From Candidatus Kaiserbacteria bacterium (GTDB taxonomy: Bacteria > Patescibacteriota > Minisyncoccia > Phycocordibacterales > JABAAK01), in assembly GCA_026713605.1 (NCBI GenBank), contig JAPOOC010000005.1:18836-82835 (forward strand): a DNA stretch of 64,000 nucleotides, written 5' to 3'. The notes under the pieces were generated by a model. The model made no database searches and had not been told where the DNA came from. It worked only from the letters and a program-made list of their open reading frames with translations. Below are positions 13,405 to 33,955 of this stretch, piece after piece. Position 1 is the stretch's first letter; each line of letters starts with the position of its first letter. The position numbers and the translations under genes were made by a program.

Positions 13405-13457
13405 TCTGCAGAAAAGATAAAAGTGTATTATCATAAAACTGTACGCCACATGCGTAT

Positions 13458-13532
13458 TGCCGGATCGTCTAATTGGTAGGACGACGGGTTTTGATCCCGT
13501 TAATCTAGGTTCGAGTCCTAGTCCGGCAGCCA
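13458..13532 (+). tRNA. tRNA-Gln (anticodon UUG), CCA encoded
   Basis: Acceptor stem TGCCGGA/TCCGGCA with U1:A72 as in many tRNA-Gln. D-loop AATTGGTAG. Anticodon stem ACGGG/CCCGT with loop TTTTGAT (anticodon TTG). T-arm GGTTCGAGTCC, then GCCA. A terminator hairpin AAACCC-ccgcaaa-GGGTTTTTGTTTT follows. Confidence 0.7.
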
Positions 13533-13682
13533 ATAAAATAGGTAATACCAAACATGACAAAACCCCCGCAAAGGGTTTTTGTTTTCATGGTCACAGCAAC
13601 CATAACGCAAACCCAAGAAATAGCAAATTTAGACGGTTGGTGATAGAATAAGAGTACATATAAACAATGTCATAAAATAGGT

Positions 13683-15740
13683 ATGAAAAAAATAGATTTT
13701 CACATCCACACCATTCCCACAAAAGGCAAGGATGCAGTTTTTGAATTTAATTCAACAAAATTTCAAGAATATGTCAACACTTTTTCTCTAGATGCTGTTG
13801 CTATAACAAATCATAATGTATTCAACATAGAGCAATACAATACAATAAAATCTTTTTTGCAGGGCGTTGTTATTTTTCCAGGCATTGAAATAGACCTTGA
13901 GGAGGGCCAATTATTATTGATTGGTGAAAATGAAGATCTCAATGATTTTAATCAGAAATGTAAATCTATAGAAAATGAGTTAGAGATAGGAAAAAAAATA
14001 ACTGCCAGTAAATTAAAAGAAATTTTTACTGATCTAAATAAATACTTACTAATACCTCATTACGATAAAAAACCAAAAGTTTCTCAAGACATAATTAACT
14101 CTTTCAACGGTTATATTTTTGTTGGTGAAGTTTCAAGTCCAAAAAAATTTTATCGTGCCATAAAAGATACAAGTTCCCTTGCGCCGGTTGTCTTTAGTGA
14201 TATTAGGATTGATGAGAACCTTGACCTTAAAGAATATCAGGGTAAGTACACATTTATTCAAACAAATTCTAACCCATTAACACTTGATGCAATTAAAGCC
14301 GCTTTAATGGATAAAAATAAAATTTTTTTATCCGACAGCGGTAAGCGTGAATTTTTCCAAGTTTTTAACAGCGGGCAAGAGTTATCAAGCGGGTTAAACG
14401 TTGTTGTCGGCGGTAGATCAACGGGTAAAACTTACCTTTTAGACAAGTTAGATAAAATTTTTAATGTTGGAGATCAGTCAGTTAAATACATCAGGCAATT
14501 TGACTTAGTAACGGATGATGAAAAAAAATTTGATGAGCGAGTAGAAAGAGAGAAGAGTGAGGTCAAAGAAGAATATCTAAGAGAATTTCGTAATGTGGTA
14601 GAAAGTGTCATTGAAATAGATTTAAAAGAAACAAATCATAAATTGGAAAAATACATTGAGACATTGTTAGATTTTGCTTCAAGTGAAAAACTTCAGGATG
14701 AGTTTTCTAAGGCAAATCTATTCAAGGAAAATATGTATATGGTAAGGCAGGATCAGGAGGATGAATTAAAAAATCTATTCAATGCTGTTGCCTTGCTGTT
14801 GAAGAATAACACACATAAAGAAACAATAAGGCAATATATTTCCAGGGATGCCCTACAAGAATTGTTTGATGATCTAACAATGAAGTATAAACAAATGTTA
14901 GAGGCACGCCTAAAGAAGGAGTGGGTAAACATGGTGGTCAAAGATATAAAGCAACAATTACAAAGGAAAACATCTAGTCCAAAAATTGACGATGATGAGA
15001 TTGATTTCTATCAAGTAAAATTAGAAAGAGAGAAAATGAGGAGATTTAATGCCATTGCAAAGGGAATAAAGAAAGAAAATGAAATAAAAAAAGTAGATGC
15101 TTTCGGGAAGTTTAAAGTAAGAGCACTCGCAACCCATTATGCAAGGGCAGGAGATTTGCGTAATGAATCTGGAAAGAGGGTTTCTTTCGCCAATGCGTTC
15201 AAAAATTATGATAGGCCAATTGTTTTTTTGAGGGAATTAAAAAATATTGAAGATCTTTCAAAAAGCGATTTATATAAATACTTTTGTAAGGTAACTTATG
15301 AAGTATTAAACGAATATGAAAGAAAAGTGTCTGGTGGTGAAATGGCAGAGTTTAACTTGCTCAAGACTTTGGAGGATGCACGACAATACGAAATGTTGCT
15401 GATAGATGAACCTGAGTCTTCTTTTGATAATCTATTTCTGAAAGAGAGTGTAAATGAGGAAATTAAGGATCTTTCAAAAGATATGCCCGTTATCGTTGTG
15501 ACACACAGCAGTACCGTTGGCATGCTTTTGAAGCCTGACTACATTTTATACACAGAAAGAAAAATTGTTGATGGCAAAGATGAGTACAAGATTTTTTCTG
15601 GATCTCCTGGAGATAAAAGATTAAAAACCGCTGATGGCAACGAATCGGTGAAAAGTTATAATACACTCTTGAGCGCATTAGAGGGTGGGCAGGAAGCATA
15701 CGGTACTAAAAATAAATTATATGGGAGTTATAAAAAATGA
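13683..15740 (+). CDS. PHP-domain phosphoesterase fused to an ABC/SMC-like ATPase (OLD/SbcC-like architecture); candidate defense nuclease
   Basis: N-terminal PHP motifs DFHIHT, AITNHN and PGIEID. Walker A GGRSTGKTYLLD. C-terminal signature-like VSGGEMAEFNLL, Walker B LLIDEPESSFD and H-loop VVTHS. AT-rich codon usage. Confidence 0.55.
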   Translation: MKKIDFHIHTIPTKGKDAVFEFNSTKFQEYVNTFSLDAVAITNHNVFNIEQYNTIKSFLQGVVIFPGIEIDLEEGQLLLIGENEDLNDFNQKCKSIENELEIGKKITASKLKEIFTDLNKYLLIPHYDKKPKVSQDIINSFNGYIFVGEVSSPKKFYRAIKDTSSLAPVVFSDIRIDENLDLKEYQGKYTFIQTNSNPLTLDAIKAALMDKNKIFLSDSGKREFFQVFNSGQELSSGLNVVVGGRSTGKTYLLDKLDKIFNVGDQSVKYIRQFDLVTDDEKKFDERVEREKSEVKEEYLREFRNVVESVIEIDLKETNHKLEKYIETLLDFASSEKLQDEFSKANLFKENMYMVRQDQEDELKNLFNAVALLLKNNTHKETIRQYISRDALQELFDDLTMKYKQMLEARLKKEWVNMVVKDIKQQLQRKTSSPKIDDDEIDFYQVKLEREKMRRFNAIAKGIKKENEIKKVDAFGKFKVRALATHYARAGDLRNESGKRVSFANAFKNYDRPIVFLRELKNIEDLSKSDLYKYFCKVTYEVLNEYERKVSGGEMAEFNLLKTLEDARQYEMLLIDEPESSFDNLFLKESVNEEIKDLSKDMPVIVVTHSSTVGMLLKPDYILYTERKIVDGKDEYKIFSGSPGDKRLKTADGNESVKSYNTLLSALEGGQEAYGTKNKLYGSYKK

Positions 15741-15741
15741 T

Positions 15742-16092
15742 ATGAGGTATTTAAAAATAAAAAATGATCAAGGTTTTTATTGGGATGGAAAAGAGGATCG
15801 AGAAATTGATAAAATCAACAAGGATGACCTTCTTAAATTGCTGAATGCAGCAGAAACTGATGAGTTTTCGATGGATCCTTATGATGATAGTCTTATAAAG
15901 AATAAAGCCCATCAGATAATTTACGAAAATATACATTCAAAAATCACTCAATTTTTGGATGAAAAGGATCAGTTTAAAAATCAAGTTGATGGTTTATATA
16001 AAGAAGCAATAAGAAAATACTCTGCTGATGTTCAAAATAAAGAGACTGACGATATTGGTAATTTGGAAGATGAAAATGAGTCAGCAGATTGA
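15742..16092 (+). CDS. small acidic hypothetical protein, operon partner of the PHP-ATPase
   Basis: Its ATG is 2 nt after the upstream stop. 116 aa ending in an Asp/Glu-rich tail. The ORF track's longer version (15685) overlaps the upstream gene. Confidence 0.4.
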   Translation: MRYLKIKNDQGFYWDGKEDREIDKINKDDLLKLLNAAETDEFSMDPYDDSLIKNKAHQIIYENIHSKITQFLDEKDQFKNQVDGLYKEAIRKYSADVQNKETDDIGNLEDENESAD

Positions 16093-16095
16093 TCT

Positions 16096-17805
16096 TTGTG
16101 GCTTAGTGGTATACTGACTTACATGGAGAACGGCAAAGAAAATGGAAAGGGGAGGCACACGGAGCGTAGCAATAAAATCGGGTTGTTTATCAATCGAATG
16201 AGTGAGGTTGTACTGTCATTTCCGTTTAAGGATTGTATTCTTGAAGGAGGAATGACAAAGGAGGAGAAAAATGGTGGCAGAGAAGAGCGTTTTTTTTGTG
16301 AAGAGATAGATGGATATGAGATAGACACCTTGAAAGACAGGAAGGTACTGACTAATTTTAGCACAATAGATAGTAAAGGAGAAAAGAAGGCGAAAGACAC
16401 AGAAGGTGTTGACTTTTTTGACAAGCAAGGAAATTTAAAAAACAATCTTTTGATAAAGGGCAATAACTTGTTGACCTTATACTCAATGAAAGAAACATTT
16501 GGCGGAAAAGTGAAAATGATTTATATTGACCCGCCGTATAACACGAGTGGAGACAAAAATACTTTTACCTACAACAATTCATTTAATCACTCAACATGGC
16601 TTACCTTTATGAAAAACAGGTTAGAGGCAGCAAGAGATCTGCTGCGGGATGATGGGGTAATTTTTATCAGTATTGATGATAACGAACAAGCATACTTAAA
16701 GATTTTATGTGATGAGATTTTCGGGAGAGATAATTTTGTCGCGAATATTATTTGGGAAAAGAAGTATTCACCACAGAATGATGCGCGGTGGCTTTCGGAT
16801 ACGCATGACCATGTTTTGTTGTATTCAAAAAACAAAGAAGTGTGGCAACCGAATCTTTTACCAAGGACAGAAGAAATGGATGGCAGATATAAAAACCCGG
16901 ATAATGATCCAAGAGGGTTGTGGAAATCGGGTGACCTTTCAGTGAAAACTTATTCTGCCGCTATGGATTACCCAATCAGGACTCCAAGCAAAAGAACGGT
17001 TCGTCCGCCGGCAAGTCGCTGTTGGAGGTTTTCAAAAAAGAAATTTGAGGAGTTGAGAGTTGATAATAGGATTTGGTTTGGAGAAAAAGGTAATAATGTT
17101 CCAAGTTTAAAAAGATTTTTATCTGAAGTGAAGCAAGGGCTTGTGTCAAAAACAATATGGTATCGTGCAGAAGTTGGCGATAATCAGGAAGCGAAGCAAG
17201 AGATTAAGAATCTTTTTAAAGGAAGCGATACACTTTTCGATACTCCAAAGCCAACACGACTTATTAAAAGAATGTTGCAGTTGGCAACAGATGACAACGA
17301 CATCATCCTTGACTTCTTCGCCGGCAGTGGCACCACCGGACATGCGACGCTTGCGCTGAATGCAGAGGATGGCGGCAACCGAAAATTCATACTCTGCGAA
17401 CAAATTGACGAGCATTTTGATATCTGCAAAGAGCGGCTGCAGAAGGTTTTGAAACAGAGTGGTAAACTACTTGCAAAACCAAGCAAAGAAAAGGTCATAG
17501 CATTTGAATTAAAGCAATATAATCAGATATTTTTAGACAAAATAAAAAAAGCAAAAACCAAAAGGGAATTAGGTGAGGTATACAAAAGTATGCAGAAGAA
17601 TGCATTTTTACAGTTTTGGTTTGAGAAAAAAGAGTTTGAGAAAAATGGATATAAAAAGAAGGAGGTGAATGAGCAGAAGGAAGAATTGCTCGGCATCCTT
17701 GACCTCAATCAGCTCTACTTGAATTATCCGGAAATGGAGGATGTAACATATAAAGTGGCGAAGATTGATCAAGATTTAACGCACAAATTCTATGCCAACA
17801 CTTGA
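16096..17805 (+). CDS. mod: type III restriction-modification Mod (N6-adenine DNA methyltransferase)
   Basis: Motif IV MIYIDPPYNT, AdoMet motif FFAGSGTTGHA and a variable central region. Followed by the Res helicase with a 14-bp overlap. True start Met uncertain. Confidence 0.8.
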   Translation: MWLSGILTYMENGKENGKGRHTERSNKIGLFINRMSEVVLSFPFKDCILEGGMTKEEKNGGREERFFCEEIDGYEIDTLKDRKVLTNFSTIDSKGEKKAKDTEGVDFFDKQGNLKNNLLIKGNNLLTLYSMKETFGGKVKMIYIDPPYNTSGDKNTFTYNNSFNHSTWLTFMKNRLEAARDLLRDDGVIFISIDDNEQAYLKILCDEIFGRDNFVANIIWEKKYSPQNDARWLSDTHDHVLLYSKNKEVWQPNLLPRTEEMDGRYKNPDNDPRGLWKSGDLSVKTYSAAMDYPIRTPSKRTVRPPASRCWRFSKKKFEELRVDNRIWFGEKGNNVPSLKRFLSEVKQGLVSKTIWYRAEVGDNQEAKQEIKNLFKGSDTLFDTPKPTRLIKRMLQLATDDNDIILDFFAGSGTTGHATLALNAEDGGNRKFILCEQIDEHFDICKERLQKVLKQSGKLLAKPSKEKVIAFELKQYNQIFLDKIKKAKTKRELGEVYKSMQKNAFLQFWFEKKEFEKNGYKKKEVNEQKEELLGILDLNQLYLNYPEMEDVTYKVAKIDQDLTHKFYANT

Positions 17806-20542
17806 AGAAACATTGCAGAATTTTCTGTTCAACAAGATAAAAGAGGATGACAGATACCCATCATTTCGTGAAAATGATGTTCCTGCACATATTGCAGATA
17901 ACCTTGCAAAAAGCAAGACACTCAGACCATATCAGGAAGAGGCAGTGAAACGGTTTCTCTACTGCTTTGGAGAAAGTGGCGGAATACCTCAAAAAAATCA
18001 TCTGCTATTCAACATGGCAACTGGCTCCGGGAAAACATTGATCATGGCGGCTGCTATCCTGCACCTCTATGCAAAAGGATACCGCAACTTCATATTTCTC
18101 GTACACAGCAAAAATATCCTGACACAAGCAATTAACTCTTTTACTAACGCATCGTATGAGAAGTACTTATTTAACCAAAAGATTTCTTTCAATGGCAGGG
18201 CAATTGAAACAAGGAAGGTCACCGATTTTGAGAATGCAAACGATATTGACATCAACATGATATTTATGACCACCCAGTTGTTTTTTAACCGGATGAATAA
18301 TGCTGCTGAGGATGTGTTGCAGAAGAGTGATTTTGCAGATAACCAGACCGTTGTCATTGCAGATGAAGCGCATCACTTGAATGTTGAAACTGCAAAAAAT
18401 ATTAAGGAAAGAGATAACTGGGAACGGTCAGTTACAGAAGTATTGAATATGCGGGATGATAATGTGCTATTAGAGTTCACAGCAACCGTTGATCTGATGA
18501 ACCCGTACATCAATAAAAAGTACAAAGACAAGTTGCTCTATAAATACGATTTTGCAGAATTCAATAACGACGGCTACTCAAAGCAGGTACAATTTCTCTT
18601 TAACAAAGAGGCGAAAATCGCAGATCAAAAGAGGTTGCTTATTGTCAATGCGGTCGCACTGTCACAATTCAGGAAAATGCAGTTTGAAGATTTGGGGTAC
18701 CCACACATTAACCCTATCATGCTCGTCAAGTCAAAAAGGATAGCAGATAGCGAACAAGATAAAGAGTTTTTCCATGAAGTCATAAACACATTAAAGGTTA
18801 GTGATTTCAAATTTCTTAAGAATGTGCAAAAAGACGAGAAACAGGTCGTGTCTTCATTGTTCAAGTATTTAGAACGCAAAAAAATCAGCGAAGGTGCGTT
18901 CATTCAAAGTATTCGCTCAGCTTTTACAGAGAAAAGCACAATCATCTATAATTCAAAAAATCAAAAGAACGCAGAATTGCTGAAGGATTTAGACGAACAA
19001 AATCCAAGAAACATCATTCGCGTTGTGTTTTCGGTCAACGCACTCAACGAAGGGTGGGATGTGCTGTCGCTCTATGACATTGTGCATTTTGATATAGGCA
19101 AGGATAAAAAGGTAAAACAGCAGGATATTCAATTGATCGGGCGAGGTGCACGATACTGCCCTTTTTTGCTTAAGGAGGAAAAGAATAGCCACAATTTATT
19201 CGGCGTATACGGCACCGAACCCGACAAGAGAAAATTTGACGACATTGGCATCAAGATTGACGAAAGAAAGATACTTGATAATTTCTACTATCATTTTGTG
19301 GAAACACAAACATTTCTTGATGGGTTAATTAAGAATCTAAAGAATGAGGGGATTCTCAACGAAGAGGTGCAGAAAGTTTCCATCAAAATGAAAGATTCAT
19401 TTATGCAATCCAATACCTATAAAAAAGGATTTGTATTAGTAAATAGCATCGAAAAAAGGCAAAAGACAACAAAAGATGAGAAGGAGCGGGTGTTCGGAGA
19501 AACACTGGATGTTACGGCATATGAACTAAGTGCGAGAGCCCTGACAGATGCCGAAGAAGCAAAAAATGCGAGCGGCAGAAAGGTTGGAGACATGAACATC
19601 ATAAAAGATTTTGATAGGAACATCATCAAAAAATCACTAATGGCAGCAGAAAATGGTTTTTTTAGATTTGCAAACCTGAAAGAACATATAACCTACCTAC
19701 AATCCATTGATCAATTTATTGATGAAGGTTTGGGTACATACACAATCAGGTATGAGCATCAGGTCGGAAAGGACATACACAATCTGGAAGTGAGAGAGAA
19801 GTTGCAGCTGCTGATAGGTGAAATACTACCAAAAGTGCGCAAGATAGTAGATAGGGAGCTTCCTAAGAAGAGTGCTGGCAGAGAGTTCAGGCCGGTTTCC
19901 TTACGAAAAATCTTTGAAAAAGAGAAGTCAGTGTATATACGATCGCACCCGGAAACCAATGAAAGAACAGGAAAGGTTGAATATGTTTCTCCGGGCGAAA
20001 GGGCGGAGGCGCAGTCGGACAGCAATAATCCAAAGTTGCAATTAGACATCGCAAAGCTTGAGTGGTATGCGTACAACGAAAACTACGGAACAAGCGAAGA
20101 GAAGCGATTCGTCAAGTACATAGATTCTCAAATAGAACAGTTATTTGAAAAGTTCACAGGAGCAGAAATATTTCTTCTAAGGAACGAGTTGGACTACTGG
20201 ATATACGGAGAGGGCGGAAAACGGTTTTCTCCAGATTACCTCTTATTCATCAATGATGCAAAGGGGAAAAAGTTCTACTACCAATGCATTTTTGAGCCGA
20301 AGGGATCGCATCTACTGGAAAAGGACAGGTGGAAAGAAAAAACTCTTGAAGAACTTGAAAAGATGACAAAGGTGTCTTTTGATATAAAAGATGGAGATAA
20401 AAAGGCATATGCTAAGTACTTGGGAGAAGTAAAAAAGATGGGGTACACGATAATCAAGAATATGGGATTCGCATTCTATAACTCGGAAAATGCAGAGCAG
20501 TCACTCAAATTTAAGGGACAATTTCAAAAAATATATGATTGA
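17792..20542 (+). CDS. res: type III restriction enzyme Res subunit (SF2 helicase-nuclease)
   Basis: Helicase motif I NMATGSGKT and motif II VIADEAHHLN. 916 aa. Overlaps mod. Confidence 0.8.
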   Translation: MPTLEETLQNFLFNKIKEDDRYPSFRENDVPAHIADNLAKSKTLRPYQEEAVKRFLYCFGESGGIPQKNHLLFNMATGSGKTLIMAAAILHLYAKGYRNFIFLVHSKNILTQAINSFTNASYEKYLFNQKISFNGRAIETRKVTDFENANDIDINMIFMTTQLFFNRMNNAAEDVLQKSDFADNQTVVIADEAHHLNVETAKNIKERDNWERSVTEVLNMRDDNVLLEFTATVDLMNPYINKKYKDKLLYKYDFAEFNNDGYSKQVQFLFNKEAKIADQKRLLIVNAVALSQFRKMQFEDLGYPHINPIMLVKSKRIADSEQDKEFFHEVINTLKVSDFKFLKNVQKDEKQVVSSLFKYLERKKISEGAFIQSIRSAFTEKSTIIYNSKNQKNAELLKDLDEQNPRNIIRVVFSVNALNEGWDVLSLYDIVHFDIGKDKKVKQQDIQLIGRGARYCPFLLKEEKNSHNLFGVYGTEPDKRKFDDIGIKIDERKILDNFYYHFVETQTFLDGLIKNLKNEGILNEEVQKVSIKMKDSFMQSNTYKKGFVLVNSIEKRQKTTKDEKERVFGETLDVTAYELSARALTDAEEAKNASGRKVGDMNIIKDFDRNIIKKSLMAAENGFFRFANLKEHITYLQSIDQFIDEGLGTYTIRYEHQVGKDIHNLEVREKLQLLIGEILPKVRKIVDRELPKKSAGREFRPVSLRKIFEKEKSVYIRSHPETNERTGKVEYVSPGERAEAQSDSNNPKLQLDIAKLEWYAYNENYGTSEEKRFVKYIDSQIEQLFEKFTGAEIFLLRNELDYWIYGEGGKRFSPDYLLFINDAKGKKFYYQCIFEPKGSHLLEKDRWKEKTLEELEKMTKVSFDIKDGDKKAYAKYLGEVKKMGYTIIKNMGFAFYNSENAEQSLKFKGQFQKIYD

Positions 20543-20753
20543 TAAGATGAGGTGCGGGTGTACTTTACCTTCTCAACATCTCACATCACAGCGTTAAGGG
20601 TTTGTCAAAGCATTACTGTTTTTCCAAAAATAAGTACTATGTATATCTGTACGACACTTTTTGGAGGTCTAAATAGTGGACATGCCACCCGGAGTTTTAG
20701 GTCTCCGTTATCAAAACCTTTTTTTCATACACCGCCAAGCAACCTACCGGCAG

Positions 20754-21302
20754 TTACCTGCTCTCATGCAAAGTTTTTTCTACAAGATCCCAGAAGCGTT
20801 TTGAGTGATTCATTTCCTTGAGGTGGCAGAGTTCGTGAACAATAAGTTTGTCGGCCTCCCGTTTGGGTAGGAATATAATTTTATAGTTGAAAGTGATATT
20901 TCTGTTTGATGAACAAATGCCCCAGCTCGCCCGAAGTTGTTTTACCCGTATCATGTTATACGAAAATTTATTCTTCCTATTCCAGTAGGAAACCTTTTCT
21001 TCGCAAAAACGCTCCGCCCGCTCTTTGTACCGAAGAAAGTGCGCACGATCTTCAATCGCAAGGTTCTCATTCGTTCCATATTTTTTTGCTAACGATTCAG
21101 TGCGTTCCGTTATCCATGGCTGCTTCTCTCGAATAAATGTTTCAACAGTCGCCTGTTTAACCCACTTCGGTTTGGTAACCGTTATTTTCCCGCCGATACC
21201 AACTGCAAGCTTTAGGTATCGCGCTTTCGGGTGGTTAAGCAACTCATAGGCGATGTATTGATTTTTATATCTAATTTTTTGTTGCGAGCGACGGGTACTC
21301 AT
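20754..21302 (-). CDS. DUF45/YgjP-like (M48-family) zinc metallohydrolase
   Basis: HExxH motif in IVHELCHLKEMNHSKRFW, typical of the YgjP/DUF45 family that is frequently linked to R-M loci. 182 aa. Confidence 0.65.
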   Translation of the reverse strand: MSTRRSQQKIRYKNQYIAYELLNHPKARYLKLAVGIGGKITVTKPKWVKQATVETFIREKQPWITERTESLAKKYGTNENLAIEDRAHFLRYKERAERFCEEKVSYWNRKNKFSYNMIRVKQLRASWGICSSNRNITFNYKIIFLPKREADKLIVHELCHLKEMNHSKRFWDLVEKTLHESR

Positions 21303-21425
21303 ACATCAAACAGTATAGCCATCTGCGCCCAAAAAAAGCAACTTGACAAAAAATGGTATCATTATATATAAAAACACCCCGAAAAAAATGAGTTTGTTCG
21401 GGGTGTTTAAGCAAGGTCGCGCTCC

Positions 21426-21917
21426 TCATTCAGCGTCCTCGTCATAGACAACTACAAGGGTGTTGCTCCGCCCATTTCTGGAAGAGACAAACAGGTTATG
21501 GTGGGTGGCAAAAAAAGTGGTAATACCTTCATTGAAGAATCGTTTGGGCAAATCAAGGGTAAAAGTTTTCTGTCCATCCGCTTGAAGATAGGGCGGGCCC
21601 ACTACCGAACTCACGGTGTAGTAGCCAACCTCATGAATGTCATCTTTAAAGAGCCATATCCGATCGCCATTTTTGAAAGTGCCACGATCCGCCATGAAAA
21701 CCAGAGTAACCTCTTCGCCATCAAACCGGGTAATGTTGTCATGTGGCTCACCGGTGTCGTCAGATGGGTCAAGGGTAAGAGTGAAAGGGAAGAACCCTCC
21801 TTCAGGCAGGGGTGGCTGAAATAAATGAAACATGCCAATCCTATCGGTGTCACATCCGATGATATCAATGCCAACCAACAGAAAAAGCAAACAGAGCAGA
21901 CCAAATTTTTTAAGCAT
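21426..21917 (-). CDS. hypothetical lipoprotein/secreted protein
   Basis: The probable true start MLKKFGLLCLLFLLVGIDIIGC is a signal peptide with a lipobox-like Cys. A downstream bidirectional hairpin terminator lies at about 21370-21405. Confidence 0.4.
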   Translation of the reverse strand: MLKKFGLLCLLFLLVGIDIIGCDTDRIGMFHLFQPPLPEGGFFPFTLTLDPSDDTGEPHDNITRFDGEEVTLVFMADRGTFKNGDRIWLFKDDIHEVGYYTVSSVVGPPYLQADGQKTFTLDLPKRFFNEGITTFFATHHNLFVSSRNGRSNTLVVVYDEDAE

Positions 21918-22000
21918 GCGTTCCTCCTTCGCAAAAAGTGCACTGTTCCAATCCATACTTGTTATAGCACAGAACAAAGATACACAAATGAGCGTATACT

Positions 22001-31596: not shown

Positions 31597-31725
31597 AGTG
31601 CCGTACCTCCCGCTAGTTAGTATGTGGTTAAGGTATCAGTAGGTAAGGTGAAATAGGAAAAACACACAAATCTATATGCAGTATATAACAAAAAATCCTA
31701 TAATAAAGCATGAACATCTGCTCAG

Positions 31726-33111
31726 ATGATATGGCATACTGGGTATATTATGGTCACATTGGAAGCCATTATGCAACTCGCAAAGCGACGGGGATTTGTA
31801 TTTCCATCCTCTGAGATTTACGATGGTTTTGCAGGAGTGTATGATTACGGACCACTTGGAGTCGAACTAGCAAACAACCTAAAAAATAGTTGGTGGCACA
31901 CGATGGTGAGAACACGCCCGGACATTGTCGGTTTGGACTCCGGCATTACCATGCACCCAAAGATATGGGAAGCATCGGGACACACAACGGGATTTGCCGA
32001 CCCGGTAACAACCTGCACAAAAACAGGGAAGCGTTTTCGCGCAGACCACTTACTTGAAGACATCGGTGTCTCTGCTGATGAGCGAATGAGTATTGAGGAG
32101 TTTCGCAAAGTGTTCGCAGAACACAAACAATCCCTGAAGATAGACGGGTGCAATCCAGATGACCTATCTGAGCCAGAGTTTCAAAATCTACTCGTAACCT
32201 CCAACTTAGGAACCTTGGGGAGCGATGAAGTTACCTATTTGCGCGGCGAAACCTGCCAAGGCATATATGTGAACTTCAAGCAGGTATTGGACACCATGCA
32301 TCTGCACCTACCATTCGGTATCGCACAAGTGGGGAAGGCATTTCGCAACGAAATAGCCCCTCGGCAATTCCTATTTCGCACCAGGGAATTTGAACAAATG
32401 GAAATGCAGTACTTTACACACGGAGAAGACAGCAAACAGCATTTTGACACATTCTTACAACTGCGACTACAAGCACTCAAAGAACTGGGTATCAATGAAG
32501 AACGCCTGCGAGCAACCCCACACGAACGATTGGTGTTCTACGCGAAAGCAGCAGTGGACATTGAGTATCAATACCCGTTTGGCTGGAAAGAGCTGGAAGG
32601 CATCCATGACAGGGGCAACTATGACTTAACCCAGCACACTGAACACTCAGGACAAAAACTCACCTATTTTGATCAAGATCGCAACGAACACATCATCCCA
32701 AGTATTATAGAAACATCCATCGGCGTCGGACGACTTTTCTTAGCAGTGCTGTGTGATGCCTACGATGAAGAGACGCTTGAAGACGGCACAGAACGAACCG
32801 TGCTACGCCTACAACCATCCATTGCACCGATGACCATAGCAGTAGTGCCACTGATGCGGAAAGATGGCCATCCAGAGAAAGCAAAAAAAGTGTATGCCGC
32901 CTTGGCACAGCAATACAGCGTGTACTACGATGAGACCGGCGCCATTGGCAAACGCTACCGCAGAGCTGACGAAATCGGCACACCATTCGCAGTAACCATT
33001 GATTACGACACGCTCAAGGACGACACCGTCACCATCCGCCACCGCGACTCAATGCAACAAGAGCGGGTACCAATACCACAACTCATACAACACCTACAAA
33101 ACACCTTGTAG
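31726..33111 (+). CDS. glyQS: glycine--tRNA ligase (dimeric GlyQS type)
   Basis: Class II aaRS motifs (FRNEIAPRQFLFRTREFEQMEMQYF) and an anticodon-binding C-terminus. True start probably MVTLEAIMQLAKRRGF... Confidence 0.8.
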   Translation: MIWHTGYIMVTLEAIMQLAKRRGFVFPSSEIYDGFAGVYDYGPLGVELANNLKNSWWHTMVRTRPDIVGLDSGITMHPKIWEASGHTTGFADPVTTCTKTGKRFRADHLLEDIGVSADERMSIEEFRKVFAEHKQSLKIDGCNPDDLSEPEFQNLLVTSNLGTLGSDEVTYLRGETCQGIYVNFKQVLDTMHLHLPFGIAQVGKAFRNEIAPRQFLFRTREFEQMEMQYFTHGEDSKQHFDTFLQLRLQALKELGINEERLRATPHERLVFYAKAAVDIEYQYPFGWKELEGIHDRGNYDLTQHTEHSGQKLTYFDQDRNEHIIPSIIETSIGVGRLFLAVLCDAYDEETLEDGTERTVLRLQPSIAPMTIAVVPLMRKDGHPEKAKKVYAALAQQYSVYYDETGAIGKRYRRADEIGTPFAVTIDYDTLKDDTVTIRHRDSMQQERVPIPQLIQHLQNTL

Positions 33112-33172
33112 TAGCCACAGTTCAATATATAGACAAAGCACAATGTCGCAAAAGGTATATTGTGCGACATTA

Positions 33173-33955
33173 CTATAAACGCAATTGGCACGAGCGGGTC
33201 TGCGTTATATTCAAAGACGCAATATAGTGCTCTGCCTCATCAACAGAATCTACCACGACAAATAAATCCATGTCTTCCGGAGATATCGTTTTATAGGTCT
33301 CAGCCAAACTATTTTGCAAAAAAGCCAGCACCGGCTCCCAATACGCTTTACCGTACAATACGATCGGAATCTGCTCTACAAGATCAATCTGCACCAAGGT
33401 CAACATTTCAAACAGTTCGTCCAAAGTCCCAAATCCACCCGGAAAAAAAATATACACCTCAGACGCGCAAGAAAGAATGGTTTTTCTTGAAAAAAGGTAT
33501 CTAAATGTCCGAAAATGCTTTAAAAACCTGTTATTTTGCTGTTCATGCGGAATATGGATATTCACCCCGACTGATTCCCCATTAACCCGATTTGCGCCAC
33601 GATTTGCCGCTTCCATAATACCCCCACTCCCGCCAGTAATAACAGCAAACCCACGGGTACTCAGTCGTGCCGCTAACTCCTCACAATCTGCATAGCACTG
33701 CTCAGGCAGCACTTCACGAGCAGAGCCAAAAAATGATACCGCCTTACCAAATTGAGAAATAAATCGAAATCCCATAAGGAACTCCAAAAAAATATCAGTT
33801 GAGTAAGCAACTGCGCGAAAAAATCCCGGTTTTTTAAATACTCCTTTTTGACGCGCAGTATTGTGCGGAACACACTTCCTTTTTGCTTTTGTAGTTATAG
33901 ATGTTTCTTTCTGCATAGCAAAATAAACTACCCACAGTATACCGCACAAAAACAA
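33173..33955 (-). CDS. LOG family protein (cytokinin riboside 5'-monophosphate phosphoribohydrolase-like, TIGR00730)
   Basis: GGGSGGIMEAANRGA and PGGFGTLDELFE motifs. True start probably the Met at about 33916. Confidence 0.75.
   Translation of the reverse strand: MFLCGILWVVYFAMQKETSITTKAKRKCVPHNTARQKGVFKKPGFFRAVAYSTDIFLEFLMGFRFISQFGKAVSFFGSAREVLPEQCYADCEELAARLSTRGFAVITGGSGGIMEAANRGANRVNGESVGVNIHIPHEQQNNRFLKHFRTFRYLFSRKTILSCASEVYIFFPGGFGTLDELFEMLTLVQIDLVEQIPIVLYGKAYWEPVLAFLQNSLAETYKTISPEDMDLFVVVDSVDEAEHYIASLNITQTRSCQLRL

What the first reader, a model, noticed from the sequence alone, without database searches (positions are those of the whole stretch)
13405..21425. AT-rich defense island next to tRNA-Gln: PHP-ATPase + small acidic protein + type III R-M + DUF45
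Directly after tRNA-Gln and its terminator, base composition drops sharply (AAA/AAT-rich codons). About 7.6 kb of same-strand genes follow: a PHP/ABC-ATPase fusion, a translationally coupled acidic protein, Mod and Res of a type III R-M system, and a convergent DUF45 zinc hydrolase of a type commonly linked to R-M loci. tRNA-adjacent, compositionally atypical, defense-enriched: this looks like a horizontally acquired defense island.
Basis: partly seen in the sequence, partly recalled or inferred. Interest (0 to 1): 0.65.

Follow-up and report, generated by a model that had tools for sequence, protein, structure and literature searches.

The report
Composite phage-defence island beside tRNA-Gln
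A 7.2 kb stretch of foreign DNA next to a tRNA gene in a tiny-genome (Patescibacteria) bacterium carries two separate anti-phage modules: a standard type III restriction system and an untested two-gene candidate already listed in a defence database. It is a real but fairly ordinary defence island.

Summary
tRNA-Gln (13458-13532) is followed by a hairpin, a sharp GC drop, and four same-strand genes, with a convergent DUF45 gene after them.

The closest genome found, a Ca. Paceibacterota chromosome (FtsE 95 %, FtsX 90 %, YchF 85 % identical), has ftsE-ftsX-tRNA-Gln-DUF45-ychF in the same order. It lacks the PHP-ATPase, the small acidic protein, Mod and Res, so window 13533-20689 is a variable island. 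DUF45 is conserved there (81 %) without any R-M system, so it is a native flank and not cargo. There is no integrase and no repeat of the tRNA end.

The island is composite:
- **PHP-ATPase plus small protein.** This pair is PADLOC candidate PDC-M49 (E 7e-233 and 7e-31; GC 0.30-0.33). It is a mobile two-gene cassette seen in 10 independent contexts, next to or inside type I, II and IIL R-M systems, or alone on Enterococcus and Rhizobium plasmids.
- **Mod-Res.** This is a complete type III R-M system (GC 0.39). Its closest relatives lack the PDC-M49 pair.

My inferred mechanism for PDC-M49 is an SMC/RecN-like ATPase gating a PHP nuclease, loosely like Ppl. It is unproven.

One new detail: most close homologues of the small protein end in an SSB-like acidic "EDIPF" tip. 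This copy has lost it. Interest is modest.

The parts
13458..13532 (+). tRNA-Gln (UUG), left anchor of the variable slot. Homology with the closest genome ends at its 3' terminus: the window encodes ...GGCAGCCA, L007 has ...GGCAGCAG.
   Evidence: ARAGORN, Rfam tRNA at 63 bits, alignment with L007. There is no significant homology to the right of the tRNA.
13533..20689 (.). Variable segment, the island proper: 7.16 kb here against 0.54 kb with one unrelated 120 aa ORF in L007.
   Evidence: tblastn synteny, L007 sequence and ORFs, boundary alignments.
13559..13579 (+). Terminator-like hairpin after the tRNA. It lies inside the variable segment and is not conserved in L007.
   Evidence: Consensus scan, alignment.
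13683..15740 (+). PDC-M49A, 685 aa. N-terminal PHP phosphoesterase (about aa 1-228): H7xH9, H44, E69, H126, D173. SMC/RecN-like ABC ATPase: Walker A 243-250, Q272, signature SGGE 550-553, Walker B 572-578, D-loop 579-582, H608. A helical insertion of about 180 aa (aa 279-462) sits between the head halves.
   Evidence: PADLOC PDLC04680, E 6.6e-233, full length. Invariant residues in a 45-sequence alignment. AlphaFold model, pLDDT 86.6. Foldseek hits to TM0559, RNase AM and PolC PHP domains and to RecN, JetC, MukB, SMC and Rad50 heads. Motif coordinates.
15742..16092 (+). PDC-M49B, 116 aa, pI 4.5 (alternative start 15721, 123 aa). Small beta sheet, one long helix (aa 55-101) and a disordered acidic tail. 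This copy lacks the '...EDIPF' tip found in most close homologues.
   Evidence: PADLOC PDLC04682, E 7e-31. Homologues and alignment. Model, pLDDT 85.5. No structural or sequence relatives in PDB or BFVD. Tail census. No IPF in any downstream frame.
16123..17805 (+). Type III Mod, 560 aa (ORF also open from TTG 16096). Beta-class N6-adenine methyltransferase: DPPY at aa 136, before FAGSG at aa 399.
   Evidence: Pfam N6_N4_Mtase, 1.4e-44. PADLOC MTase_III, 5.5e-113. Motifs. Gene-caller start seen in L087.
17792..20542 (+). Type III Res, 916 aa. SF2 helicase (GSGKT aa 78, DEAH aa 191) with a C-terminal PD-(D/E)xK motif (PDY...FEPK, aa 814-837).
   Evidence: Pfam ResIII, 4.5e-32. PADLOC REase_III, 3.8e-93. 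HI_1054 Pfam families on the identical database protein. Motifs.
20690..20718 (+). Conserved 29 nt element (hairpin CGGAG-N8-CTCCG plus tail) where homology with L007 resumes. This is the right edge of the slot.
   Evidence: 27 of 29 nt identical. None of 500 shuffles reached the local alignment score.
20754..21302 (-). YgjP-like/DUF45 HExxH metallohydrolase (HELCH, aa 156-160). A native flanking gene, not island cargo.
   Evidence: Pfam PF01863, 8e-35. 81 % identical orthologue at the same place in L007, which has no R-M system. GC3 0.464, native range.
21426..21956 (-). Predicted lipoprotein of unknown family (lipobox-like IIGC). Absent from L007: a second, unrelated small indel between DUF45 and ychF.
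   Evidence: ORF and translation. No Pfam, PADLOC or NCBIfam hit. No tblastn hit in L007.

Best explanation
Window 13533-20689 is a horizontally acquired, composite defence island. It sits in a variable slot between tRNA-Gln and a conserved hairpin upstream of a native DUF45 gene, in the chromosome of a Patescibacteria bacterium (Paceibacteria / 'Ca. Kaiserbacteria'). It holds two autonomous modules that are probably read as one four-gene transcript.

**Module 1: PADLOC candidate PDC-M49.** M49A fuses a PHP-family metal-dependent phosphoesterase or nuclease to an SMC/RecN/Rad50-type ABC ATPase with a short helical arm. M49B is a small acidic partner that always follows it.

Inferred mechanism for module 1 (about 35 % likely as stated):
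- M49A dimerises through its ATP-bound heads on foreign DNA or DNA ends.
- The nucleotide state gates the PHP nuclease, as reported for the single-gene PHP-NTPase system Ppl.
- M49B is the regulatory or adaptor subunit.

**Module 2: a conventional type III R-M system.** Mod hemimethylates its site. The Res SF2 motor, with its PD-ExK nuclease, cuts unmodified incoming DNA.

**Shown:** gene identities, intact catalytic motifs, absence of the block from the closest genome, the compositional break, and the mobility and constant pairing of M49A with M49B.

**Inferred:** anti-phage function of PDC-M49, its mechanism, co-transcription, and the direction of the event (gain rather than loss).
For: **Island status**
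- L007 (YchF 85 %, FtsX 90 %, FtsE 95 %, DUF45 81 % identical) has the same flanks but no M49A, M49B, Mod or Res.
- The boundaries fall at the tRNA 3' end and at a 29 nt conserved element.
- GC and GC3 z-scores reach -5.4 and -4.3.

**PDC-M49**
- Full-length PADLOC hits for both proteins.
- All PHP and ABC catalytic residues are invariant in 45 homologues.
- The model has pLDDT 86.6, with PHP and SMC/RecN/JetC/MukB/Rad50 structural neighbours.
- In 10 of 10 independent contexts a 98-126 aa gene follows M49A, from a 41 nt overlap to a gap of a few bases.
- The neighbours are type I (embedded, twice), type II and type IIL R-M systems, Abi, toxin-antitoxin, DUF4238, transposases and recombinases. 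64 plasmid records carry the pair and no phage record does.

**Type III R-M**
- Pfam and PADLOC hits, motif order, and a 14 nt mod-res overlap.

**Composite origin**
- There is a GC step at the M49B/Mod joint.
- The closest Res relatives (69-70 % identical) have Mod-Res without M49AB.
- No other M49AB context examined has a type III system.

**Ppl precedent**
- Ppl is a PHP 3'-5' ssDNA exonuclease plus NTPase, inhibited by bound NTPs (PMC12904381).
Against: - Only one close comparator genome was found, so gain in this lineage and loss or replacement in L007 cannot be polarised.
- Mod and Res have GC3 within the native range (z -0.4 to -1.0), so that module could be old.
- There is no integrase, att repeat or transposase in the island, so the insertion mechanism is unknown.
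- PDC-M49 has no experimental validation in the searched literature: 0 papers contain the name, and it is listed only as a predicted candidate.
- No PADLOC Ppl model appears among the M49A hits, even with the E-value limit set to 10. The Ppl analogy therefore rests on architecture, not on demonstrated homology.
- This copy of M49B lacks the conserved C-terminal tip, so it might be impaired.
Confidence: 0.75

Rival explanations
1. One reading: one tRNA-targeted genomic island of five genes, from the PHP-ATPase through DUF45, brought in as a unit. DUF45 would be an R-M accessory hydrolase.
For: DUF45 is adjacent and convergent to Res. From general knowledge, DUF45/YgjP genes are often found beside R-M loci. 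The position next to a tRNA is confirmed.
Against: DUF45 is conserved (81 %) at the same place in L007, which has no R-M system. Homology resumes 65 nt downstream of its stop codon. Its GC and GC3 are native. There is no integrase and no repeat of the tRNA end. M49AB and Mod-Res differ in GC3 by 0.12-0.22.
Confidence: 0.07
2. The block, or at least Mod-Res, is ancestral at this position. The closest genome lost or replaced it, so there was no recent acquisition.
For: GC3 of Mod and Res lies within the native range. There are no mobility genes or att sites. L007 holds a different small ORF in the slot, so the difference is a replacement and not a clean insertion.
Against: M49AB is 4-5 sd below native GC. 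Both modules are patchily spread across phyla and plasmids. The closest Res relatives sit in unrelated contexts.
Confidence: 0.15
3. M49AB and Mod-Res form a single four-gene system. The PHP-ATPase would be an accessory of, or back-up for, the type III enzyme, in the way PrrC works with EcoprrI.
For: The genes share a strand. Only 30 nt separate M49B from Mod, and no terminator-like site was found between them. M49AB is embedded in type I R-M systems elsewhere. The PrrC precedent is discussed by Payne et al..
Against: None of the other 9 M49AB contexts has a type III system, and 4 have no R-M system at all, including plasmid copies. Mod-Res relatives lack M49AB. The two modules differ in composition.
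Confidence: 0.1
4. M49AB is not immunity. It would be a DNA-repair or maintenance machine (like SbcCD, RecN or PolX-PHP), or a plasmid addiction module.
For: The ATPase head resembles RecN, Rad50 and SMC. PHP domains proofread in PolX and PolC. Most M49B homologues carry an SSB-like tip, which is typical of the replication and repair interactome. Copies occur on plasmids next to toxin-antitoxin genes.
Against: The distribution is patchy and mobile, with repeated embedding inside R-M operons and neighbours such as Abi, AbiH and DUF4238. The pair is absent from the closest genome, so it is not a core function.
Confidence: 0.1

Closest known systems
PADLOC 'phage defence candidate' PDC-M49 (Payne et al., bioRxiv 10.1101/2024.01.29.577857; PADLOC-DB v2)
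   Same: Both proteins match the A and B models end to end (E 6.6e-233 and 7e-31). They are adjacent, on the same strand and tightly coupled. The family was defined from cassettes embedded in BREX, DISARM or type I R-M systems, and I saw that arrangement in Bacteroidota and Patescibacteria (CPR) loci.
   Different: Here the cassette sits in front of a type III R-M system instead of being embedded in one of those systems. The M49B tail is truncated. PDC-M49 is a prediction only; no test of it was found.
Ppl (Gao et al. 2020): single-gene PHP + ATPase anti-phage system
   Same: The domain logic is the same: a PHP phosphoesterase fused to a P-loop NTPase. Ppl is reported as a 3'-5' ssDNA exonuclease held inactive by NTPs bound to both domains and triggered by nucleotide depletion and 3'-OH ends (PMC12904381; PMC11482910).
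   Different: No PADLOC Ppl model appears among the M49A hits, even with the E-value limit set to 10. M49A always has a partner gene, whereas Ppl is a single gene. The M49A ATPase is an SMC/RecN-type head with a helical insertion.
TrlF (NCBIfam NF045780), the PHP-type 'histidinol phosphatase'/AAA-like ATPase of the Photorhabdus temperature-restriction locus trlG-trlF-trlR
   Same: The N-terminal PHP domain and Walker A region align (aa 3-275, E 3e-22). TrlF also works in a small operon that is toxic under stress.
   Different: The score is 79 bits against a family cut-off of 350. The TrlF model is 944 positions long. Its partners are TrlG (AlbA_2 + HATPase_c_4) and TrlR, not an M49B-like protein.
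SMC-like nuclease defence and repair complexes (Wadjet JetABCD, Lamassu LmuABC, SbcCD/Mre11-Rad50, RecN)
   Same: The best structural neighbours of the ATPase part are RecN, JetC, MukB, SMC and Rad50 heads. The concept of an ATPase head, an arm and a nuclease is shared.
   Different: The arm is only about 180 residues. The nuclease is PHP and is fused in cis. There are no kleisin, KITE, LmuA, LmuC or Mre11 genes, and no PADLOC hit to those families.
Type III restriction-modification (EcoP15I / HinfIII, HI_1054 type)
   Same: Mod with DPPY before FxGxG, Res with SF2 motifs and a C-terminal PD-ExK motif, and mod overlapping res.
   Different: Nothing notable. No simple-sequence repeats that would suggest phase variation.

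Membership tests
PADLOC PDC-M49 | Protein A matches a PDC-M49A HMM over its full length | tested here: met
   PDLC04680, E 6.6e-233, aa 1-683 against model positions 1-672 of 674.
PADLOC PDC-M49 | Protein B matches a PDC-M49B HMM and lies directly downstream on the same strand | tested here: met
   PDLC04682, E 7.1e-31. The ATG lies one base after the M49A stop codon.
PADLOC PDC-M49 | Confers protection against phage | not testable with these tools
   No paper in the library contains 'PDC-M49'. It is listed only as a predicted candidate.
Ppl (Gao 2020) | PHP domain fused to an NTPase in one polypeptide | tested here: met
Ppl (Gao 2020) | Single-gene system | tested here: not met
   An M49B gene follows M49A in 10 of 10 contexts.
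Ppl (Gao 2020) | Sequence match to the Ppl profile | tested here: inconclusive
   No Ppl model appears among the PADLOC hits with the E-value limit set to 10. I could not confirm independently that the library holds a Ppl model, and I had no Ppl sequence for a direct comparison.
TrlF family (NF045780) | Score at or above the curated cut-off of 350 bits | tested here: not met
   79 bits, N-terminal 275 aa only.
Type III R-M | Mod is a beta-class N6-adenine methyltransferase, with motif IV (DPPY) before motif I (FxGxG) | tested here: met
   DPPY at aa 136, FAGSG at aa 399. PADLOC MTase_III, 5.5e-113.
Type III R-M | Res is an SF2 helicase with a C-terminal PD-(D/E)xK nuclease, encoded directly after mod | tested here: met
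   GSGKT, DEAH and PDY...FEPK. ResIII, 4.5e-32, and REase_III, 3.8e-93. 14 nt overlap with mod.
Type III R-M | Site-specific hemimethylation and ATP-dependent cleavage | not testable with these tools
   Needs methylome or enzyme data.
Integrase-type tRNA-integrated genomic island | Tyrosine or serine integrase at one end | tested here: not met
   No recombinase among the ORFs or Pfam hits of 13.4-21.4 kb.
Integrase-type tRNA-integrated genomic island | Direct repeat of the tRNA 3' end at the far border | tested here: not met
   The 23 nt tRNA 3' end occurs once in 64 kb with up to 3 mismatches allowed. No such repeat family was found.
Integrase-type tRNA-integrated genomic island | Absent from a close relative that shares the flanks, with atypical composition | tested here: met
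OLD / PARIS (AriA) / Gabija-type ABC ATPase defence | OLD-type ABC ATPase with a TOPRIM partner or domain | tested here: not met
   Only weak partial AriA and HEC-01A hits (E 3e-6 to 5e-4). No TOPRIM domain. The structural neighbours are SMC/RecN heads.
DUF45/YgjP as R-M-linked accessory (as part of this island) | Co-inherited with the R-M genes | tested here: not met
   The orthologue is present in L007 without any R-M system.

The most novel reading that the evidence does not exclude
PDC-M49 is a genuine, mechanistically new two-component immune system. In this reading the small subunit M49B uses a C-terminal copy of the SSB tip to plug the PHP-nuclease/SMC-like ATPase into the SSB interactome, either as bait for phage proteins that bind SSB tails or as a tether to ssDNA-processing sites.

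- The tip reads '...EEEINPEDIPF' in M49B homologues, against '...EEEISVEDIPF' in two SSBs from uncultured bacteria among the fetched loci.
- The copy in this window lost the tip when it was joined to the type III R-M system, so it would be a natural tail-less variant.
Probability: 0.2. Interest if true: 0.65.

Novelty: new member of a known kind. Interest (0 to 1): 0.35.

Why it matters
- **Methodological lesson.** Adjacency and composition alone pulled a native gene (DUF45) into the island. One syntenic relative was enough to redraw the borders and show that the island is a mosaic of two modules.
- **Biological point.** Even a roughly 0.7 Mb Patescibacteria genome keeps a 7 kb defence slot.
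- **An experimental handle on PDC-M49.**
  - It is a widespread but untested candidate, found in Patescibacteria (CPR), a Nanoarchaeota (DPANN) MAG, Bacteroidota, and Enterococcus, Staphylococcus, Clostridium and Rhizobium plasmids.
  - It has fully conserved PHP and ABC catalytic residues.
  - In one clade the partner protein carries an SSB-tip look-alike.
  - The Enterococcus plasmid copies make it testable in a cultivable host.

Tried and rejected
- **att-site hypothesis.** The repeat search and a 3-mismatch pattern search for the tRNA 3' end found nothing. Rejected.
- **A conserved promoter shared with L007 to the right of the tRNA.** An apparent match in the MAFFT alignment was not significant in a local-alignment shuffle test: 201 of 500 shuffles reached the score. 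Rejected.
- **More relatives of the slot.**
  - An FtsX scan of metagenome contigs returned no relative.
  - An exact tRNA-Gln pattern scan returned three loci from other lineages (dnaX-tRNA-Gln, GC 0.34) that share no flank. These were uninformative.
- **Non-coding RNAs or phase-variation repeats in the island.** Only the tRNA was found, and only trivial tandem repeats.
- **Fold and sequence relatives of M49B.** None in PDB or BFVD: the best Foldseek E-values were 1.4 and 0.2, and hmmsearch gave E > 0.3.
- **M49A in phage genomes.** No tblastn hit.
- **Literature check for a tested PDC-M49 or a PHP-ATPase two-gene system.** None found.
- **OLD, PARIS or Gabija membership.** Rejected: weak partial hits only, and no TOPRIM domain.


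Full report

Yes. ARAGORN and Rfam place tRNA-Gln(UUG) at 13458-13532 on the + strand. A terminator-like hairpin follows at 13559-13579.

GC in 1 kb windows falls from about 0.46 to 0.33 at 14-16 kb and stays at 0.38-0.40 up to 21 kb. No other 1 kb window in the 64 kb is below 0.399.

Per-gene values, compared with 50 other ORFs of the window (GC 0.469 +/- 0.032; GC3 0.463 +/- 0.057), show two tiers:

| Gene | GC | GC3 | z (GC) | z (GC3) |
|---|---|---|---|---|
| M49A | 0.328 | 0.292 | -4.4 | -3.0 |
| M49B | 0.30 | 0.22 | -5.4 | -4.3 |
| Mod | 0.385 | 0.408 | -2.6 | -1.0 |
| Res | 0.390 | 0.443 | -2.5 | -0.4 |
| DUF45 | 0.421 | 0.464 | within native range | within native range |

- a 685 aa protein at 13683-15740;
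- a 116 aa acidic protein (pI 4.5) whose ATG at 15742 lies one base after the preceding stop codon;
- Mod at 16123-17805;
- Res at 17792-20542, overlapping Mod by 14 nt;
- a convergent 182 aa gene at 20754-21302.

**2. What the genes are**

*Family scans.*
- Pfam gives N6_N4_Mtase for Mod (1.4e-44), ResIII for Res (4.5e-32) and YgjP-like/DUF45 for the convergent gene (8e-35). The flanking genes are FtsX and YchF.
- PADLOC gives MTase_III (5.5e-113) and REase_III (3.8e-93).
- PADLOC also gives full-length matches of the first two proteins to PDC-M49A (6.6e-233) and PDC-M49B (7.1e-31).
- PDC systems are "phage defence candidates" that Payne et al. predicted because they are embedded in BREX, DISARM or type I R-M loci. 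I read the S and M prefixes as single-gene and multi-gene; the passages I read do not define them. The candidates were added to PADLOC without testing.
- No paper in the library contains "PDC-M49". Papers that tested other PDC systems did not include it.

*M49A.*
- The window protein itself does not reach Pfam PHP. Homologues 47 % identical to it do (27.1 bits against a cut-off of 26.4).
- A 45-sequence alignment shows invariant H7, H9, H44, E69, H126 and D173. It also shows an invariant ABC set: Walker A 243-250, Q272, SGGE 550-553, D575/E576, the D-loop and H608.
- The AlphaFold model has pLDDT 86.6 and pTM 0.70.
- Its N-terminal domain matches PHP phosphoesterases (TM0559, RNase AM, the PolC PHP domain). 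The rest matches RecN, JetC, MukB, SMC and Rad50 heads.
- A helical insertion of about 180 residues lies between the two halves of the head.

*M49B.*
- The model (pLDDT 85.5) shows a three-stranded sheet, a short helix, one long helix (aa 55-101) and a disordered acidic tail.
- No relatives were found in PDB or BFVD by fold or by profile.

*Mod and Res.*
- Mod has DPPY (aa 136) before FAGSG (aa 399).
- Res has GSGKT, DEAH and a C-terminal PDY...FEPK motif.
- This is a complete, ordinary type III R-M system.

**3. Is it an island, and where are its borders?**

A YchF scan of one genome per species found one close relative. This is L007, a 662 kb Ca. Paceibacterota chromosome with YchF 85 % identical; the next best is 65 %. 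The identical M49B and Res database proteins are from a "Ca. Kaiserbacteria" MAG. The host is therefore a Patescibacteria bacterium.

L007 has ftsE (95 %), ftsX (90 %), tRNA-Gln, DUF45 on the minus strand (81 %), ychF, and the next gene (71 %) in the same order. It has no M49A, M49B, Mod or Res, and no lipoprotein gene.

- **Left border.** Homology stops at the last bases of the tRNA. Nothing significant lies to its right.
- **Right border.** Homology resumes at a 29 nt hairpin-containing element, window 20690-20718 (27 of 29 identical; 0 of 500 shuffles reach the score).
- **Size of the slot.** It is 7.16 kb here. In L007 it is 0.54 kb and holds an unrelated 120 aa ORF with a weak STIV_B116-like hit.

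Two conclusions follow.
- The four same-strand genes are variable cargo.
- DUF45 is a native flanking gene, conserved without any R-M system.

No integrase and no repeat of the tRNA end exist. The same island, 100 % identical, occurs on five metagenome contigs, so it is fixed in that population.

With one comparator I cannot strictly polarise gain against loss. The composition of M49AB argues for gain. Mod-Res is ambiguous.

**4. One unit or two?**

Two.

In ten independent contexts a 98-126 aa gene always follows M49A, from a 41 nt overlap to a gap of a few bases. The neighbours vary:
- embedded in type I R-M (hsdM-hsdS-[A-B]-hsdR in Bacteroidota; hsdM-[A-B]-x-hsdR in another contig);
- between EcoRI-like and DpnII-like type II systems with an IS1595 element;
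- next to a HinP1I-like system;
- next to an MmeI-like enzyme with transposases;
- next to DUF4238 and UvrD with a serine recombinase;
- with no R-M at all in a Doudnabacteria genome, on E. faecalis rep9a plasmids (between recombinases, near Abi and RelE/ParE), and on a Rhizobium plasmid (IS3, DUF4238, AbiH).

None of the other contexts has a type III system.

Conversely, the closest Res relatives (69-70 % identical) carry Mod-Res with the same 14 nt overlap but no M49AB.

The GC step falls exactly at the M49B/Mod joint. M49AB occurs on 64 plasmid records and on no phage record.

In the window the four genes share a strand and have no terminator-like site between them. Co-transcription is plausible, but it is an inference.

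**5. How it most likely works**

*Type III R-M (established knowledge).* Mod methylates one strand of an asymmetric site. Res-Mod complexes bound to unmodified sites use ATP to communicate along DNA and cleave.

*PDC-M49 (inference).*
- The catalytic residues of both M49A domains are invariant, so both activities are under selection.
- The head is of the type that dimerises around ATP and clamps DNA.
- PHP domains in PolX, PolC and RNase AM are metal-dependent exonucleases.
- The only validated defence protein with this domain logic, Ppl, is described as a 3'-5' ssDNA exonuclease held off by NTPs bound to both domains. It is released by nucleotide depletion and 3'-OH ends (PMC12904381; PMC11482910).
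- I therefore propose that M49A is an ATP-gated PHP nuclease acting on foreign DNA or DNA ends, and that M49B is a regulatory or adaptor subunit. I put this at about 35 % as stated.

*Membership tests.*
- Membership of Ppl is not supported. No PADLOC Ppl model appears among the hits with the E-value limit set to 10, and M49A has an obligate partner.
- Membership of the TrlF family fails: 79 bits against a cut-off of 350. TrlF belongs to the Photorhabdus trlG-trlF-trlR locus.

**6. A detail worth recording**

- Of the 120 listed M49B homologues, 58 end in [IVL]PF after an acidic stretch, typically "EEEINPEDIPF". These are nearly all of the closest ones, from the Patescibacteria/Nanoarchaeota clade.
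- Two Pfam-confirmed SSB genes, from uncultured bacteria among the fetched loci, end in "EEEISVEDIPF". From general knowledge, the SSB C-terminal tip (DDDIPF in E. coli) is the docking peptide for many replication and repair proteins.
- Bacteroidota copies of M49B have no tail.
- The window copy ends "...LEDENESAD", with no IPF in any downstream frame. The tip appears to have been lost at the joint with Mod.
- I found no literature on this. It suggests a testable link between PDC-M49 and the SSB interactome, but it is not a property of this window's copy.

**7. Verdict**

- It is a real, compositionally foreign defence island beside a tRNA.
- Its borders exclude DUF45.
- It shows none of the marks of integrase-mediated tRNA integration.
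- It is a mosaic of a catalogued but untested candidate system and a routine type III R-M system.

This is a new member of known kinds and of modest interest. The untested status of PDC-M49 and the SSB-tip mimicry in its small subunit are the only parts that could grow into something new.

Noticed in passing
M49B homologues P0122-P0187 (alignment A4); SSB genes L054:12069-12524 and L060:2966-3406; window 16040-16122: 58 of 120 M49B homologues end in an acidic tail plus [IVL]PF (typically EEEINPEDIPF). This nearly matches the C-terminal tip of two SSBs from uncultured bacteria among the fetched loci (EEEISVEDIPF). The window copy and the Bacteroidota copies lack the tip. In the window the loss coincides with the joint to Mod.
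   Followed up: partly
window about 31700-33200: Gene orientation switches from mostly + to mostly - at about 33.1 kb, and GC skew flips from positive to negative there, where the cumulative skew peaks (about 32 kb). This is the pattern expected at a replication terminus.
   Followed up: no
window 21426-21956 (-): A predicted lipoprotein gene of unknown family lies between DUF45 and ychF. It is absent from the closest genome, L007, where DUF45 and ychF are 138 bp apart. This is a second, independent indel with native-like GC (0.465).
   Followed up: partly
L007:8868-9230 (+): In the closest genome the tRNA-Gln/DUF45 slot holds a different 120 aa ORF with a weak hit to the archaeal-virus STIV_B116-like family (E 0.015, below threshold). 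The slot may take varied mobile cargo.
   Followed up: partly
window 13530-13532 against L007 8712-8714: The window tRNA-Gln has an encoded 3' CCA and the L007 copy does not (GGCAGCAG). The sequences diverge exactly at the acceptor end, as if the recombination joint lay inside the last bases of the tRNA.
   Followed up: no
L092 (E. faecalis plasmid NZ_CP124933.1) 7001-9326 and 10696-11697: An M49AB cassette (37 % identical) sits between two recombinase genes on rep9a plasmids of E. faecalis, near an Abi protein and a RelE/ParE toxin-antitoxin pair. A neighbouring DUF4062 protein also ends in an acidic '...DESDLPF'. This gives a cultivable host in which to test PDC-M49.
   Followed up: no
L105:561-8014: The contig with the closest Res relative (70 % identical) carries a second type III-like Mod/Res pair. 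The cognate mod is split into several short ORFs, which could be a pseudogene, a phase-variable gene or an assembly error.
   Followed up: no
The identical M49B and Res proteins of this window are in the protein database (Ca. Kaiserbacteria MAG). The M49A search returned nothing above 72 % identity, although the gene is called intact (685 aa) on contigs L087-L090. This is probably a limit of the word-index candidate step.
   Followed up: no
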